DNA of 64,000 nt, from assembly GCF_029227855.1 (NCBI RefSeq), contig NZ_CP074356.1; one strand, 5' to 3'. The position numbers were made by a program. The number at the start of each line of letters is the position of its first letter. Positions within the stretch are counted from its first letter, which is position 1. This stretch comes from Escherichia coli. Lineage in GTDB: Bacteria; Pseudomonadota; Gammaproteobacteria; Enterobacterales; Enterobacteriaceae. Of the stretch, positions 16,201 through 22,200 are shown piece by piece.

Positions 16201-19200
16201 AGATTCATCGGTACATTTTCCGGGATTTGCGCCACGCGGTGGAACACATCGGAAAATCCCTGGCGATACATAAAATGTTCCATATCCAGCGCCGGTAACG
16301 CCGTTAAATGTTCTCGTTCGGCTTCCCGATCGTTATTCAACAGGCTGCGTACCGTAGCGGCATATTTCTTCCCTGCTTCATCGCCATCGACCAGTACATG
16401 CCATTCAATCCCCATTCGGCGGGCAAATTTAACCAGTGGCTTTAGCCCGGACTGGGCAAACTCAATGACCTTGATCCCTTCAGCATCAAAATGATGTCCG
16501 CACTGACGCGCCAGTTCATTGATAACCCAGGTTTCCGTTTCCCCTTCCACCAGCAGCCAGCAGCGTGCAAACAGCGATGACGGACGATTAAAACGAATGT
16601 GGAAAGAGATGCGTCGGCTATCTTCGGTACTCAAGCCACTCGGCCCCAGACGCCAGGCGGCAACGCGCGAGGACTCACGTACCAGTCGGCAAATATGCTC
16701 TACCGGCGTTAACGAAAGCAACTCACCCGAGTTGGTGGTGGCAATGCGCTGCAATGGCAGAAGATTCAACAGATGCCAGGCAACTGAAAGCATAATGGGG
16801 TGTAAACGGGTTTCTGGATCTTCGATCAGCAACAATGGACGGGCGTCTTTATCCAGTCGCAATGTGCCTTTTGCCTGCAATAAAGTAGCAAACAGGCCGA
16901 GCAAAATAACCCGATACGAGCGCCCTCCTGGTCGGTCAATCATCCGGTTGATGATATCCAGATAGCGCCAGCTTCGTTGCTCATTGCTGGCTCGCCGCCG
17001 CATTAAACGATATCGCGCCTGTCCGGCCCCCTGCTCAGAGAAATAATGCTCAAGCAGCTGTACCATTGCGGAAAGTCCCTGACGAATCTGCCCATCAGAG
17101 AGATTTTGCGGATGTGAGGATAGCTCACGGGCGAGGAAATCGAGCTGGCGCGCGGTGACTTCCACATTAGGGACATTTGGCACCGTGCCGTTACGAATAC
17201 GGCGCATAAAACGGGCATCACGCAAGCGCAGCACCGGCATTAAACGCACCAGATGGCGTGCCTGGTCGTTAATATCCTCGACATCAATCGGATGTCCGTC
17301 TTTATCGAGAAAACTGCGGAGTGTCATCACGCTGCCGTCTTCCGCACTCTCCCCTTCCAGACGATAAAAAATACGGTGATAGCCATCGGTGCATGGCGTC
17401 CAGCACGCTTCCAGCGGCCGATAGCGGCGAACCCGATGTCGGCCTGGCAGCGATTCGCGGAAGGTCAAAATAATATGCAGATGATGTTCTCGCCCGTTGA
17501 TATCTCCCGGCGGGAACCAGAAATCGTCGCGCTCAAAATGGTAGAGATCTGATTCTGGCGATAGCAGCAGAGTTAAGGCGTCCAGCAAGCTGGATTTACC
17601 CCACGCGTTCTCCCCAATCAGGACGTTGTTTTGTTCCAGCATCAACGACAAACGGTTGATACCGCGAAAACCCACAATTTCAACGCGCTCAAGAATCATA
17701 TCCCCTCCAGAAATATGTGACTTATCCTTTACGCTGGCAGTATAACGGGAAAGGCCATGCTAATACGTGATGACATCACATTTAAGCATGGCAAATGTCT
17801 GAAAAATGAGCGAATAATCGCGTTATACTCCCTCTTGCTGATAAGCCTGCAAAAACAACAAAATCAAATAATTAGCATGATAAATTATTTTTTATTACGC
17901 CTAAAGGATTAAATCTTTTGCTTGCACTACACTGTCAATCAGACAAATGACTATATGGGGCAACCCGCTGTTGCCCTAAATCAAATTTACTGGATTTATT
18001 TATCTGGTGAATGACTCGCCTTCGTTTTTAAAATAGCCGCGCATTATTTCCGTCGTCACTTTTTTACGACGACCCTATAAAACGACCATATTTTTCACAG
18101 GGTCAATTTTTAATTGAGGTGGATATGTTCAGAAAATTAGCAGCTGAATGTTTTGGTACTTTCTGGCTTGTTTTTGGTGGCTGTGGTAGTGCTGTACTGG
18201 CCGCAGGCTTCCCGGAATTAGGCATTGGTTTTGCCGGCGTGGCGCTGGCATTCGGTCTGACCGTTCTGACGATGGCCTTTGCTGTTGGTCATATTTCTGG
18301 TGGTCATTTTAACCCGGCGGTCACTATTGGTTTATGGGCTGGCGGACGTTTCCCGGCAAAAGAAGTCGTTGGCTACGTAATTGCCCAGGTTGTCGGCGGT
18401 ATTGTTGCGGCGGCGCTGCTGTATTTAATTGCCAGTGGTAAAACGGGTTTTGACGCGGCAGCCAGCGGTTTTGCTTCTAACGGTTATGGCGAGCATTCGC
18501 CAGGCGGTTATTCCATGCTTTCCGCGCTGGTAGTTGAACTGGTATTGAGTGCAGGTTTCCTGCTGGTGATCCACGGCGCAACCGACAAATTCGCTCCTGC
18601 TGGTTTTGCGCCGATCGCTATTGGTCTGGCCTTAACCCTGATTCACTTAATCAGTATTCCGGTGACTAACACTTCTGTTAACCCGGCGCGCAGCACCGCG
18701 GTTGCTATCTTCCAGGGCGGCTGGGCATTAGAACAACTGTGGTTCTTCTGGGTGGTGCCAATTGTCGGCGGTATTATCGGTGGTCTGATTTACCGGACTC
18801 TACTGGAAAAGCGTAATTAATTAACGCAGAAGGCCTGGCGCAATGTCAGGCCTTTTTTAAATATATTGATTCATCTTCCTGTTGCGCTCCTTGATGTGTT
18901 AAGCCACATATAGTCACTGGCGCAGGGAGCGCGCAGGGGGCGGCCAATCGCCGCCGCCCCCTGCACCCCCGGGCTCTGGCGAACAAAATCGCCGCTGCGC
19001 GGTGCCCTCGACTTATCCCTTGCGGCTACCGGGTCGGGCGCGAGGTAACATATATGGACGCTCCCGGAATGCAATGCTTTCTTCAGTTATGTAATAAAAC
19101 GGGTAGGTGCAGCCATATATCCGGTTTCTGATGGGATTTTTATCCCGAACCATGATGAAATCCGCCAGGCAGGTACCAATCATCCTCTACGGGCTAACTT

Positions 19201-22200
19201 GCCCTTGTTACCTCTCGGTGTATCCTGCCTGCGGTCTTACCTGTTTTGCCATCTTCTGAAGTCACTTGCACCTACCAGGACGTTAACTTTTTTTCAGCAC
19301 CTCGTCAGATTGACTGACCTTGTGTCAGGCGAGCTGCCGAGGTTGATATTCAGTATTGTGTGACAATATTGACCACATGATCCTCGCTGTTTTTGCCGCC
19401 ATGGCGACAACAGCTACATTGTAGTGCTTCCGCTCAAGGAGTCCCTGAAGCCAGGAATTCTCCTCAACCGCGCCGTTTCGGTTGACCCAGGCGGTAAGTG
19501 CGCGTGCGCCGTGAACCAGCAGGTATCGGAAATATCCATCTCCACGTTTGCTGATCCCTCCCAGTTGCTGTTTCCCGCCGCTGGAATGTTCCTTTGGTGT
19601 CAGCCCCAGCCATGAAGCGAACTGCTTTGCGGTACTGAATTGTCGGGCATTACCCACTGCTGCTACCACATAAGTGGCCGTTAGCATGCCAACCCCCGGG
19701 ATCTTGGCCATTCTCTGGCAGGCTTCCTGCGTTCTATACCAGGAGGCCAGAGCTTCTTCTACCTGTTTAACTTGTTCTTCAAGTTCCCGGATATGTTTAG
19801 ACTGTCTGTAGATGCTGGTTCTGACAAAGGGAGATAAACCATTTTCGCCATCCTCCAGAATGGCTGGCAGCTCACGGGTTAAATGGTTTTGTCCGGCCGC
19901 AATCGTAATACCAAACTCAGCAAGTGTGGCTCTTAAACTATTGGCACAGGCAATCCGCTCACGGATAAGTATTCCCCGTTCAGTGTGTAACGCTAAAACG
20001 GCCTGCTGCTCTTCGGTTTTTATCTGAACAAAACGCATATTCGGACGGGTTACCGCTTCGCAGATTGCTTCAGCATCTGCTGCATCCGTCTTGTTCGTTT
20101 TCACATAAGGCTTCACATACTGCGGAGGTATGAGTTTTACCTCATGACCATAGCGGGTGAATAATCGCGCAAAATAATGACTGGATGAGCAGGCTTCCAT
20201 GCCAATCAGACAAGGTTCCAGTTGAATCACAAACTGAACAAACTTAGCCCGGGTGAGCTTTTTACGCAAAATAGTATGGCCTTCATGATCGACACCATGA
20301 AGCTGAAAAACGTTCTTTGCCAAGTCGATACCAAGAGTTGATACTTTCATGTGGACGCTCCTAATTTTTCAGGACGTATTGCAACGATCCAGTCTGGTAC
20401 TTTGATACCGTAAAATCTGGAGCGTCCATCTCATTATCCCTGTAAAACGCGCCCTCAGCCCACATCCATGTGGGCTGCCCCGGCCTTCAGGGAACGCCTC
20501 GGCGATTTTGACGCCACCAACACCGGTGCGGTTTGTAATTAAAGCGCAAGAATATCTTTAAATGAAAATGAATACCCTACCGATCCTTATGCATAACATT
20601 TCCTTTTAATTGCAACTTTACTCGTCCTTCCGCTTTCAGTAGTGTGTCATCGCGCATTTCGACTTCATCTTTGCAAGGACTGGGTTTTCATGTTTTCTGG
20701 GCTGTTAATCATTCTGGTTCCCCTGATTGTGGGTTACCTCATTCCTCTTCGCCAAAAAGCTGCATTAAGAGTTATTAATCAGCTATTAAGCTGGATGGTT
20801 TACCTCATTCTCTTTTTTATGGGTATCAGTCTGGCGTTTCTCGATAACCTCGCCAGTAACCTGTTGGCAATTCTGCATTATTCCGCCGTCAGCATTACCA
20901 TTATTTTACTCTGCAATATTATTGCGTTGTTGTGGCTGGAGCGCGGTCTGCCGTGGCGCAATCACCACCAGCAAGAAAAACTCCCGTCGCGTATTGCGAT
21001 GGCGCTGGAGTCGCTAAAACTGTGCGGCGTAGTAGTGATTGGTTTTGCCATTGGCCTGAGTGGACTGGCTTTCTTACAACATGCGACCGAAGCCAGTGAA
21101 TACACCTTAATTCTGCTACTTTTCCTCGTCGGTATTCAGTTGCGCAATAATGGCATGACCTTAAAGCAGATTGTCCTTAATCGCCGGGGAATGATTGTCG
21201 CCGTGGTGGTGGTTGCCAGTTCATTAATTGGTGGTTTAATTAACGCCTTTATTCTTGATCTTCCCATCAATACCGCGCTGGCAATGGCCTCTGGTTTCGG
21301 CTGGTATTCTCTTTCCGGTATTTTATTGACCGAATCTTTTGGTCCGGTAATCGGGAGCGCGGCGTTTTTTAATGATCTGGCCCGTGAGCTGATTGCAATT
21401 ATGTTGATCCCTGGGCTGATTCGCCGCAGCCGCTCTACCGCACTGGGCTTATGCGGTGCGACGTCGATGGATTTCACCCTGCCCGTTCTTCAACGTACTG
21501 GCGGGCTGGATATGGTCCCGGCGGCAATTGTTCACGGTTTTATTCTTAGCCTGTTAGTGCCGATCCTCATCGCCTTTTTCTCTGCGTAATACCTCTCTGG
21601 CGGTAGATCCCTGCCGCCAAAATTGCGCTAAATCAATCTCCCTTAAAGTTGCATGAAAAATCCCTTTTATCCCTGCGTTAAGCGTCTTAACCTTAAACAT
21701 GTATATTAAATATAACTTTAAAAGGTGTGATCATGTTTTGTGTGCAATGTGAACAAACTATCCGTACTCCGGCAGGAAACGGCTGCTCATACGCGCAGGG
21801 GATGTGTGGTAAAACGGCGGAAACCTCTGACCTTCAGGATTTACTCATCGCGGCGCTGCAAGGGCTTTCGGCCTGGGCGGTAAAAGCGCGTGAATACGGC
21901 ATCATCAACCACGATGTAGACAGCTTTGCGCCACGCGCATTTTTCTCAACCCTGACCAACGTTAACTTCGATTCTCCGCGTATAGTCGGCTACGCTCGTG
22001 AAGCGATTGCCCTGCGCGAGGTGCTGAAAGCACAATGCTTGGCTGTAGATGCCAACGCGCGCGTCGATAACCCGATGGCTGACCTGCAACTGGTGAGCGA
22101 TGATCTCGGCGAGCTGCAACGTCAGGCAGCAGAATTTACCCCTAACAAAGATAAAGCGGCGATTGGCGAAAACATTCTCGGCCTGCGTCTGCTGTGCCTG

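What the first reader, a model, noticed from the sequence alone, without database searches (positions are those of the whole stretch)
19100..19330. Inverted repeats downstream of the IS110-family recombinase: alternative element end or native structured region
GGTAGGTGCA (19104..19113) is the exact reverse complement of TGCACCTACC (19267..19276), about 155 bp away. The interval also holds the hairpin GGGATTTTTATCCC (19142..19155) and CCGCCAGGCAGG / CCTGCCTGCGG inverted repeats. If the element belonged to the IS1111 subgroup, the bridge-RNA-type ncRNA would lie 3' of the recombinase, in which case this would be the ncRNA and the element would extend to about 19100. Otherwise it is a structured native intergenic segment adjacent to the insertion point. 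The hexamer cctacc at 19271..19276 and again at 20576..20581 (1305 bp apart) could mark the insertion junctions, but a 6-mer match is not statistically compelling on its own.
Basis: seen in the sequence. Interest (0 to 1): 0.4.

Follow-up and report, generated by a model that had tools for sequence, protein, structure and literature searches.

The report
Bridge RNA gene of insertion sequence ISEc81
The inverted repeats are the stems of the guide ("bridge" or "seek") RNA encoded in the right end of a catalogued mobile element, ISEc81, so this is an ordinary, already described kind of feature and not native E. coli DNA.

Summary
The segment 19100-19330 lies entirely inside an insertion sequence. 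Alignment with IS-free E. coli strains puts the junctions at 19051/19052 and 20435/20436. The insert is 1384 bp plus one copy of an ambiguous AT, so the element is 1386 bp (19051-20436).

The element has every structural hallmark of the IS1111 group:
- an 11-bp perfect subterminal inverted repeat;
- 7-nt and 3-nt terminal extensions;
- a 341-aa DEDD transposase;
- a short 5' end (85 nt) and a long 3' non-coding region (273 nt).

Its transposase is 337/341 identical to ISfinder's ISEc81. Durrant et al. 2024 already list a bridge RNA detected in the right end of ISEc81.

I aligned it with 15 homologous elements whose transposases are 40-53% identical. Across that alignment, 27 of 41 base pairs show compensatory changes. 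The loop strands co-vary with each element's own target flanks and own ends.

In this element GAGGUAACA pairs with the right flank TGTTACCTC. The "native segment" alternative and the cctacc junction idea are both refuted.

Novelty: already known. Interest: low.

The parts
19051..20436 (-). ISEc81, complete copy: 1386 bp under the IS1111 convention of a 7-nt left and a 3-nt right extension. The crossover is ambiguous within the dinucleotide AT, which is present at 19050-19051 and 20436-20437.
   Evidence: Empty-site alignment. Window 18400-19051 matches L001 1-652 and window 20436-21100 matches L001 651-1315; K-12 gives the same result. The ends fit the conserved NAATGRN...sTIR...sTIR-AYA pattern of 17 homologous elements.
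19325..20350 (-). Transposase / bridge recombinase gene, 341 aa.
   Evidence: Pfam PF01548 (DEDD_Tnp_IS110, 3.8e-15) and PF02371 (Transposase_20, 1.1e-24). 337/341 identical to ISfinder ISEc81 Tnp. RefSeq annotates it as an 'IS110 family RNA-guided transposase'.
20419..20429 (-). Left subterminal inverted repeat (ATGGACGCTCC in the transposase sense), preceded by the 7-nt left extension TAATGAG (20430-20436).
19054..19064 (-). Right subterminal inverted repeat (GGAGCGTCCAT in the transposase sense), followed by the 3-nt right extension ATA (19051-19053).
19102..19276 (-). Bridge RNA / long seekRNA, about 175 nt, delimited by the outer stem GGUAGGUGCA (19267-19276): UGCACCUACC (19102-19111).
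   Evidence: Aligns over its full length with the 3' non-coding regions of 15 homologous elements. In the consensus structure, 94% of cells are paired and 27/41 pairs have compensatory changes. The covariation score is 0.447, against 0.187 when shuffled (0/500 shuffles reach it) and at most 0.12 when slid.
19163..19233 (-). Target-binding module, probably the short seekRNA. It comprises the stem CGCAGGCAGG (19224-19233) : CCUGCCUGGCG (19163-19173), an internal loop, and the cap hairpin GGGC-AAGUUA-GCCC (19191-19204).
Evidence: Helices 4-7: every pair of helix 4 has compensatory changes.
19206..19214 (-). Target guide, 5' strand of the loop: GAGGUAACA. It is complementary to the top strand of the right flank.
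   Evidence: Exact 9-nt complement of the flank at 19042-19050 (I3). The homologous position in other elements matches their own right flank: 9-nt perfect in 6 of 12, diagonal mean 7.0 against off-diagonal 3.2, permutation p about 5e-5. The unrelated plasmid insertion site L009 shares only GAGGTAACAT with the chromosomal sites.
19174..19190 (-). 3' strand of the target loop: GUAGAGGAUGAUUGGUA. Its first part has the same sense as the left flank (GGGA|T). Its second part resembles the IS left end (conserved AAUGAGG in homologs against the left end NAATGRR), which is handshake-like.
   Evidence: In homologs this strand reads own left flank plus own left end, for example L028 UUGAAA|GAAUG and L030 ACGGAGG|AAAUG. 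Diagonal 4.6 against off-diagonal 3.0, p about 1e-4. In ISEc81 itself the match is weak: GGAU, or GGAUGAU with one G:T wobble.
19113..19161 (-). Donor-binding module.
   Evidence: The 5' strand pairs with left-end positions 3-9 (7/7 including wobble in 12 of 15 elements). Unique variants co-vary: L019 AUGUCAU with ATGACAT, and L033 AUCUUAU with ATAAGAT. The 3' strand is identical to the last 5 nt of the right end plus the first 3 nt of the left end (8/8 in 9 of 15; ATACA, ATGTA and ATATA types all tracked). Permutation p about 5e-5 for both strands. Helices 8 and 9 co-vary.
19042..19050 (.). Target right flank (TGTTACCTC in the transposase sense). Native DNA, outside the IS.
20437..20443 (.). 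Target left flank (ACAGGGA in the transposase sense). Native DNA, outside the IS.
19069..19074 (-). -35-like hexamer TTGCAT of the promoter that would form only when the ends are joined in the excised circle: TTGCAT - 16 nt - TATAAT. The TATAAT is made of TA from the right end (19051-19052) and TAAT from the left end (20433-20436).
   Evidence: Reconstructed circle junction. The TTG is conserved at the same distance from the right end in 14 of 15 homologs, and the junction hexamers are TATAAT, TAGAAT, TAAAAT or CAAAAT. No sigma-70-like promoter was found on the minus strand inside the integrated copy. Promoter activity was not tested.

Best explanation
The segment is the 3' non-coding region of ISEc81, an IS1111-group member of the IS110 family. 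This copy is inserted, transposase on the minus strand, into an intergenic repeat between aqpZ and lysO. The region encodes the element's bridge RNA (also called seekRNA).

- Target-binding module. A stem (CGCAGGCAGG:CCUGCCUGGCG) opens into an internal loop. The 5' strand of the loop, GAGGUAACA, pairs with the top strand of the right flank (TGTTACCTC). The 3' strand has the sense of the left flank and runs on into a left-end-like sequence.
- Donor-binding module. It is capped by the GGGAU-AAAA-AUCCC hairpin. Its flanking strands match the element's own left end (ATGAGAT) and the joined right-end/left-end junction (ATATA|T).

Likely cycle, inferred from published work on relatives:
1. The element excises as a circle.
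2. The joined ends create a promoter (TTGCAT-16-TATAAT).
3. That promoter transcribes the transposase gene and the downstream RNA, which is then processed.
4. The RNA, bound by the DEDD recombinase, aligns the circle junction with a site reading ACAGGGA|TGTTACCTC.
5. The element integrates there in one orientation.

Shown here: the element's boundaries, its identity, the conserved RNA structure, and the co-variation of the loop strands with flanks and ends. Inferred: transcription, processing, protein binding and catalysis.
For: - Boundaries and absence from IS-free strains.
- IS1111 hallmarks: an 11-bp perfect sTIR, 7+3 extensions, a 341-aa Tnp with PF01548 and PF02371, and a 273-nt 3' NCR against an 85-nt 5' NCR. 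These criteria are those of Siddiquee et al. 2024 (PMC11187229).
- Identity: 337/341 to ISEc81 Tnp. Supplementary Table 5 of PMC11208160 lists ISEc81 with 'Detected Bridge RNA End' = RE and group IS1111.
- Structure: z = -3.6. In the 16-sequence consensus, 27/41 pairs have compensatory changes, 94% of cells are paired, 0/500 shuffles reach the observed value and the slid controls collapse.
- Target guides: a 9-nt exact match here. Cross-matching guides against flanks across 12 elements separates own from foreign targets (p about 5e-5 and 1e-4).
- Donor guides co-vary with the element's own ends.
- The order 'top-strand complement first, bottom-strand match second' is the order reported for IS1111 seekRNAs.
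- Site and orientation specificity: the same position and orientation in three chromosomal repeat copies (aqpZ-lysO, yohP-dusC, asmA-yegH) in E. coli, and in the same repeat in Kluyvera.
Against: - There is no expression or binding evidence for this element. Everything is sequence-based.
- No Rfam family covers this RNA, so no curated model could be applied.
- In ISEc81 itself the left-flank guide is short (4-5 nt, or 7 with a wobble), and the donor 3' strand matches only 6/8. The palindromic ATATAT makes its strand assignment ambiguous here; only the homologs resolve it.
- The donor 5' strand overlaps the 3' arm of a predicted intramolecular helix (GAUGG:UCAUC, helix 2). Its co-variation could therefore partly reflect RNA-RNA pairing rather than RNA-DNA pairing.
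- The permutation tests ignore the relatedness of some homologs (L020, L026 and L030 are close).
Confidence: 0.9

Rival explanations
1. The segment is a native, structured part of the aqpZ-lysO intergenic region next to the insertion point.
For: The surrounding native DNA is itself a highly structured palindromic repeat (fold z = -5.9), so structured native sequence at this locus was plausible.
Against: IS-free strains at 95-99.7% flank identity, including K-12, lack 19052-20435 completely. The segment travels with the transposase gene to other loci and to other genera.
Confidence: 0.01
2. The repeats act only at the DNA level, as protein-binding sites or a cruciform in the IS right end for end recognition. 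No functional RNA is involved.
For: IS1111 elements do use DNA-level inverted repeats (the sTIRs) near their ends. Helix co-variation cannot by itself tell RNA hairpins from DNA hairpins.
Against: The loop strands match two different DNA partners on opposite strands (flanks and ends) and co-vary with them. That is the signature of a guide, not of a protein site. G:U pairs are frequent on the transposase-sense strand: helix 1 column 13/198 is GU in 12/16 sequences, and these would be A:C mismatches on the other strand. Relatives ISEc11, ISPa11 and ISKpn4 yield NCR-derived RNAs that co-purify with the transposase and are required in cis or in trans (PMC11187229).
Confidence: 0.04
3. The outer stem followed by CGUUUUAUU is just an intrinsic terminator or 3'-end stabiliser for the transposase mRNA.
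For: In ISEc81 the 3' arm UGCACCUACC is followed by a U-rich run.
Against: The terminator scan found nothing there. The U-run is not conserved in the homologs, whereas the stem and the whole 175-nt architecture are. A terminator would not explain loops that co-vary with flanks and ends. This role is not exclusive of the main explanation: the stem may also define the RNA's 3' end.
Confidence: 0.05

Closest known systems
ISEc81 (ISfinder entry; IS110 family, IS1111 group)
   Same: The transposase is 337/341 identical. A bridge RNA was detected in the right end of ISEc81 by Durrant et al..
   Different: There are four amino-acid differences. The ISfinder DNA entry could not be consulted, so nucleotide-level identity and the ends recorded there were not compared. 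No paper in the held library describes its target, guides or boundaries; the only three papers that name it were seen by title and abstract alone and look like mobile-element or resistance surveys.
ISEc11, ISPa11 and ISKpn4 seekRNAs (Siddiquee et al. 2024, PMC11187229)
   Same: sTIRs, 7+3 extensions and a downstream NCR. The RNA carries a top-strand complement followed by a bottom-strand match, and the two overlap at the insertion point. Like ISPa11 (REP) and ISKpn4 (attC), the target is a folded or palindromic repeat.
   Different: The target sequence is different (ACAGGGA|TGTTACCTC). In the published matrix the ISEc81 transposase is about 32-44% identical to the other transposases listed. 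Those RNAs were shown experimentally; this one was not.
IS621 bridge RNA (Durrant et al. 2024; Hiraizumi et al. 2024)
   Same: Two-module logic: a target-binding loop and a donor-binding loop, each reading both strands around the crossover. The target loop also has a 3' strand that continues into donor-like sequence (handshake-like).
   Different: IS621 belongs to the IS110 group. Its RNA is in the left end, upstream of the recombinase gene, its STIRs are only 2-3 bp, the guide order is reversed, and the donor loop is a simple internal loop. Here the donor strands sit in a multiloop context.

Membership tests
IS1111 group of the IS110 family | DEDD (RuvC-like) N-terminal domain plus the PF02371 C-terminal domain; transposase of 330-350 aa | tested here: met
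   PF01548 at 3.8e-15 and PF02371 at 1.1e-24; 341 aa. The length range is from PMC11187229.
IS1111 group of the IS110 family | Subterminal inverted repeats of about 11-13 bp, perfect or nearly so | tested here: met
   ATGGACGCTCC at 20419-20429 (minus sense) and 19054-19064, 11/11. It matches the consensus ATGGACGCCTCCC of the homologs.
IS1111 group of the IS110 family | Asymmetric terminal extensions, 7 bp left and 3 bp right, with no true target duplication | tested here: met
   The insert carries 6 + 2 nt beyond the sTIRs, plus one copy of the ambiguous AT, making 10 nt = TAATGAG + ATA.
IS1111 group of the IS110 family | Long non-coding region downstream of tnp and a short one upstream | tested here: met
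   273-274 nt downstream against 85-86 nt upstream.
IS1111 group of the IS110 family | Insertion at one specific sequence, in one orientation | tested here: met
   Identical junctions and orientation at aqpZ-lysO, yohP-dusC and asmA-yegH, and in three Kluyvera copies.
IS1111 group of the IS110 family | Circular intermediate whose joined ends form a promoter | not testable with these tools
   Sequence only: TTGCAT-16-TATAAT would form at the junction, and the TTG is conserved in homologs.
ISEc81 (same element or isoform) | Near-identity to the ISfinder reference | tested here: met
   Protein 337/341. The DNA reference is not available here.
Bridge RNA / seekRNA | Encoded in the long NCR on the transposase strand, with a conserved secondary structure | tested here: met
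Bridge RNA / seekRNA | A loop with one strand complementary to the top strand and one to the bottom strand of the target, overlapping at the insertion point (top-strand complement first in IS1111) | tested here: met
   GAGGUAACA pairs with TGTTACCTC (9/9). GGAU(G) has the same sense as GGAT(G). The pattern co-varies across 12 elements. The left-flank match is weak in ISEc81 itself.
Bridge RNA / seekRNA | A second loop matching the donor (the element's own ends) | tested here: met
   Caveats: the 5' strand overlaps helix 2, and some homologs are closely related.
Bridge RNA / seekRNA | The RNA is made, binds the recombinase and is required for transposition | not testable with these tools
   Shown only for relatives (PMC11187229, PMC11208160).
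Bridge RNA / seekRNA | Match to a curated covariance model | tested here: inconclusive
   Rfam 15 returned no relevant family for 18700-20800 at E <= 1. Apparently no bridge-RNA family for this group is in the library.
TwoAYGGAY RNA (RF01731), considered for the target repeat and not for the finding itself | Covariance-model score at or above the gathering threshold (43 bits); two adjacent hairpins with AYGGAY loops | tested here: not met
   Full-length hits (model positions 1-168) of 30.6 to 33.1 bits in three uninterrupted copies, with E = 0.004-0.056. Two Klebsiella copies gave no hit. The loops read AUGGAU and AGGGAU. This is a resemblance only.

The most novel reading that the evidence does not exclude
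Helix 2 of the consensus structure (GAUGG at about 19249-19253 pairing with UCAUC at about 19153-19157) has a 5' arm that mimics the GATGG of the element's left end (left extension into the left sTIR). It pairs with the same nucleotides that would read the left-end DNA. If both pairings are real, the RNA carries a built-in decoy for its donor guide. That would be a conformational switch keeping the donor-binding strand masked until the recombinase or the donor DNA displaces it. Neither published description that I read mentions such a feature for IS1111 bridge or seek RNAs.
Probability: 0.12. Interest if true: 0.4.

Novelty: already known. Interest (0 to 1): 0.15.

Why it matters
The main value is correct annotation. 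About 230 bp that look like an odd structured intergenic region are the guide-RNA gene of a catalogued RNA-guided insertion sequence, and the true IS boundaries are 19051 and 20436.

The analysis adds some detail that I did not find in the papers searched here, none of which describe ISEc81 itself:
- its exact ends;
- its 9-nt right-flank guide;
- its donor-matching strands;
- its natural landing site, a fixed position in a three-copy palindromic intergenic repeat.

This could serve anyone wishing to test or reprogram an E. coli-native IS1111-type system. It does not change what is known about the family.

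Tried and rejected
- Rfam scan of 18700-20800 at E <= 1. It returned only chance-level hits (cow-rumen-3, mir-611) and no bridge-RNA family.
- Promoter and terminator scan. It found no minus-strand promoter for the RNA inside the integrated copy and no terminator at the outer stem. The RNA is therefore probably made by read-through from the circle-junction promoter, as proposed for relatives.
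- The cctacc hexamers as junctions. Rejected by the empty-site alignment.
- A 15-nt, 80% complementarity between the RNA's AUAUAUGGCUGCACC and the right end plus sTIR (I1), which suggested that the donor 3' strand pairs with the top strand. Rejected because in homologs with non-palindromic ends (ATACA, ATGTA) the RNA is identical to the top strand, not complementary to it.
- A 349-bp plasmid match covering only the NCR (H29/H70), considered as a possible stand-alone bridge-RNA gene. Alignment shows a truncated, decayed ISEc81-like relic with a degenerate right end, lying next to an IS3 fragment.
- Bridge-RNA-guided site-specific recombination as the origin of the large inversion seen in many genomes. 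Rejected because each hybrid junction carries one complete IS. Recombination between the left junction of one copy and the right junction of the other would instead leave an empty hybrid target and a tandem IS (inference).
- The first attempt at the genome-contig scan failed for lack of a slot. The repeat succeeded.

Full report
**What is in the sequence.** The window is E. coli. aqpZ lies at 18119-18820 (+). A 341-aa IS110-family transposase ORF lies at 19325-20350 (-). lysO starts near 20692 (+).
- GGTAGGTGCA is at 19102-19111, not 19104-19113.
- GGGATTTTTATCCC is at 19133-19146, not 19142-19155.

A perfect 10-nt inverted repeat in this 273-nt stretch arises in about 1.7% of Markov resamples. 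The strand folds with z = -3.6. That is suggestive but not decisive.

**Where the element ends.** Megablast against 5,426 complete E. coli genomes showed that most strains have an aqpZ-lysO spacer about 1.39 kb shorter. I aligned the window to an IS-free strain of 99.6% flank identity (L001) and to K-12 (L003). Window 18400-19051 is continuous with 20436-21100, with a 2-bp overlap. The insert is therefore 19052-20435 (1384 bp), flanked by AT on both sides. The finding region 19100-19330 lies wholly inside the insert. This refutes both the 'native structured segment' alternative and the cctacc-junction idea.

**What kind of element it is.** The ORF carries PF01548 and PF02371. An 11-bp perfect inverted repeat, ATGGACGCTCC, sits subterminally at 19054-19064 and 20419-20429. 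If one AT copy is assigned to the element, the extensions beyond the repeats are TAATGAG (7 nt, left) and ATA (3 nt, right). Siddiquee et al. give exactly this 7+3 rule for the IS1111 family, along with sTIRs of 11-13 bp, transposases of 330-350 aa and a long NCR downstream of tnp (PMC11187229). Here the NCR is 273 nt downstream against 85 nt upstream. A FASTA file in that paper's supplement contains ISfinder's ISEc81 transposase, which is 337/341 identical to this ORF. ISYen1 is 68% identical. Supplementary Table 5 of Durrant et al. lists ISEc81 as group IS1111 with 'Detected Bridge RNA End' = RE (PMC11208160). The element and the presence of a bridge RNA in its right end are thus already on record. 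Only three papers in the held library mention ISEc81 by name; I did not open them, and their titles and abstracts read as mobile-element or resistance surveys.

**Anatomy of the RNA.** A scan of one genome per species returned 34 loci encoding relatives, at 96-97% identity in Kluyvera and Citrobacter and 40-53% in diverse Proteobacteria and other phyla. In 17 of them I found the sTIR pair. The same conserved end pattern appears in all: NAATGRN-sTIR ... sTIR-AYA. Their 3' NCRs align over about 180 nt despite the low protein identity.

RNAalifold on 16 sequences gave nine helices. Of 41 pairs, 27 show changes on both sides, and 94% of cells are paired. The covariation score is 0.447, against 0.187 for shuffles (0/500 reach it) and at most 0.12 when the 3' partners are slid by 1-3 columns.

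- helix 1, the outer stem (19267-19276 with 19102-19111);
- helix 4, the stem of the target module (19224-19233 with 19163-19173);
- helix 9, the cap hairpin of the donor module (19133-19146).

**Guides.** In ISEc81 the 5' strand of the first internal loop reads GAGGUAACA (19206-19214). This is the exact complement of the top strand of the right flank, TGTTACCTC (19042-19050). The repeat finder reported this pairing independently as I3. At the homologous position, other elements carry the complement of their own right flank:
- L020: AUGUCGUCC with GGACGACAT;
- L022: AAGGCCCUC with GAGGGCCTT;
- L031: CCACCCGCC with GGCGGGTGG;
- L034: GUUCACGUU with AACGTGAAC.

In a 12 x 12 cross-comparison, own-target runs average 7.0 nt against 3.2 nt for foreign targets (permutation p about 5e-5).

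The 3' strand of the loop has the sense of the left flank and continues into a sequence like the left end. In L028 it reads UUGAAA|GAAUG and in L030 ACGGAGG|AAAUG; the diagonal mean is 4.6 against 3.0 off the diagonal, p about 1e-4. In ISEc81 itself this match is short (GGAU, or GGAUGAU with one wobble). The order, top-strand complement first and bottom-strand match second with the two overlapping at the insertion point, is the order reported for IS1111 seekRNAs.

A second module matches the donor. AUUUCAU pairs with left-end positions 3-9, and AUAUAU equals the last five right-end bases plus the first left-end base. Both strands co-vary with unusual ends in homologs: L014 has ATGTA, L019 has ATGACAT, L033 has ATAAGAT, and several have the ACA type. 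These non-palindromic cases also settle an ambiguity that exists in ISEc81 itself, where the 3' strand could be read as complementary to the right end (I1).

**How it most likely works.** Joining the ends gives ...TTGCAT-16 nt-TATAAT..., with the -10 hexamer split between the two ends. The TTG is conserved at the same distance in 14 of 15 homologs. No minus-strand promoter was found in the integrated copy. The expected cycle follows from the published behaviour of ISEc11, ISPa11, ISKpn4 and IS621:
1. excision to a circle;
2. junction-promoter transcription of tnp and the downstream RNA;
3. processing to a short target-module RNA and a longer form;
4. recombinase-RNA pairing of the circle junction with ACAGGGA|TGTTACCTC.

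Transcription, processing, binding and catalysis are inferred, not shown here.

**The target.** The three chromosomal sites found in E. coli are aqpZ-lysO, yohP-dusC and asmA-yegH. They are copies of one intergenic repeat, with 185-270 bp shared at 86-94% identity, and they are hit at the same base in the same orientation. A plasmid copy shares only GAGGTAACAT with them on the side that can be seen, which fits a 9-nt right-flank guide. Kluyvera carries the same element in the same repeat.

**Verdict.** The feature is a known kind in a catalogued element. Novelty: already known. Interest: low (0.15).

Noticed in passing
window 19051-20436; L004, L007, L008: A large chromosomal inversion between two ISEc81 copies. 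Among 5,426 complete E. coli genomes, 85 carry yohP|ISEc81|lysO and 85 carry aqpZ|ISEc81|dusC, the two reciprocal hybrid junctions; strain TCM3e1 has both, and IAI39 has at least the first. Only 7 genomes keep the parental aqpZ|IS|lysO arrangement of this window and 9 keep yohP|IS|dusC. One whole IS at each junction points to homologous recombination between inverted copies. From memory of the K-12 map, the two sites lie roughly symmetrically about the terminus. The number of independent inversion events was not determined.
   Followed up: partly
window 18872-19050 plus 20437-20532 (uninterrupted copy: L001 470-750): The IS target is a strongly structured palindromic intergenic repeat (fold z = -5.9), with three copies in E. 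coli and up to 13 matches in one Klebsiella pneumoniae chromosome. Uninterrupted copies give full-length but sub-threshold Rfam hits to TwoAYGGAY RNA (30.6-33.1 bits against a threshold of 43; E = 0.004-0.056), on the same strand as the transposase. ISEc81 inserts in the apical loop of the second hairpin, inside AGGGA|U. TwoAYGGAY has been proposed as a CsrA-binding RNA (PMC4333381). Membership is not established.
   Followed up: partly
L044 2501-2849 (E. coli TCM3e1 plasmid unnamed1); also H70: A 349-bp unannotated stretch, 92.9% identical to window 19077-19425. It covers the last ~100 nt of tnp plus the bridge-RNA region, with the same guides and a degenerate right end, and lies between an IS3 fragment and T6SS genes. 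It is a truncated relic, not a stand-alone RNA gene.
   Followed up: yes
L009 1501-2457 (plasmid pSTEC299_1): An ISEc81 copy cut off by an IS66 fragment, inserted in DNA unrelated to the chromosomal repeat. Only GAGGTAACAT next to the right end is shared with the chromosomal sites.
   Followed up: partly
L010, L011, L013 (Kluyvera genomosp. 3 YDC799): Three copies with a 96%-identical transposase, in the same repeat at the same position. In two of them the longest ORF is shortened (316 and 261 aa), so they are probably inactivated copies.
   Followed up: no
L018 about 1540-1669 (Francisellaceae MAG contig): The contig ends in at least four tandem copies of a 27-nt unit containing the IS right end (TGTTGCGAATTCTGGACGGCCCATATA). 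This is either an assembly artefact or a real tandem duplication of the end.
   Followed up: no
window 19249-19253 with 19153-19157: Consensus helix 2 (GAUGG:UCAUC) pairs the donor-reading strand of the RNA with an upstream segment that resembles the element's own left-end DNA (GATGG). Three of its six pairs show compensatory changes. It is mutually exclusive with pairing to the left-end DNA.
   Followed up: partly
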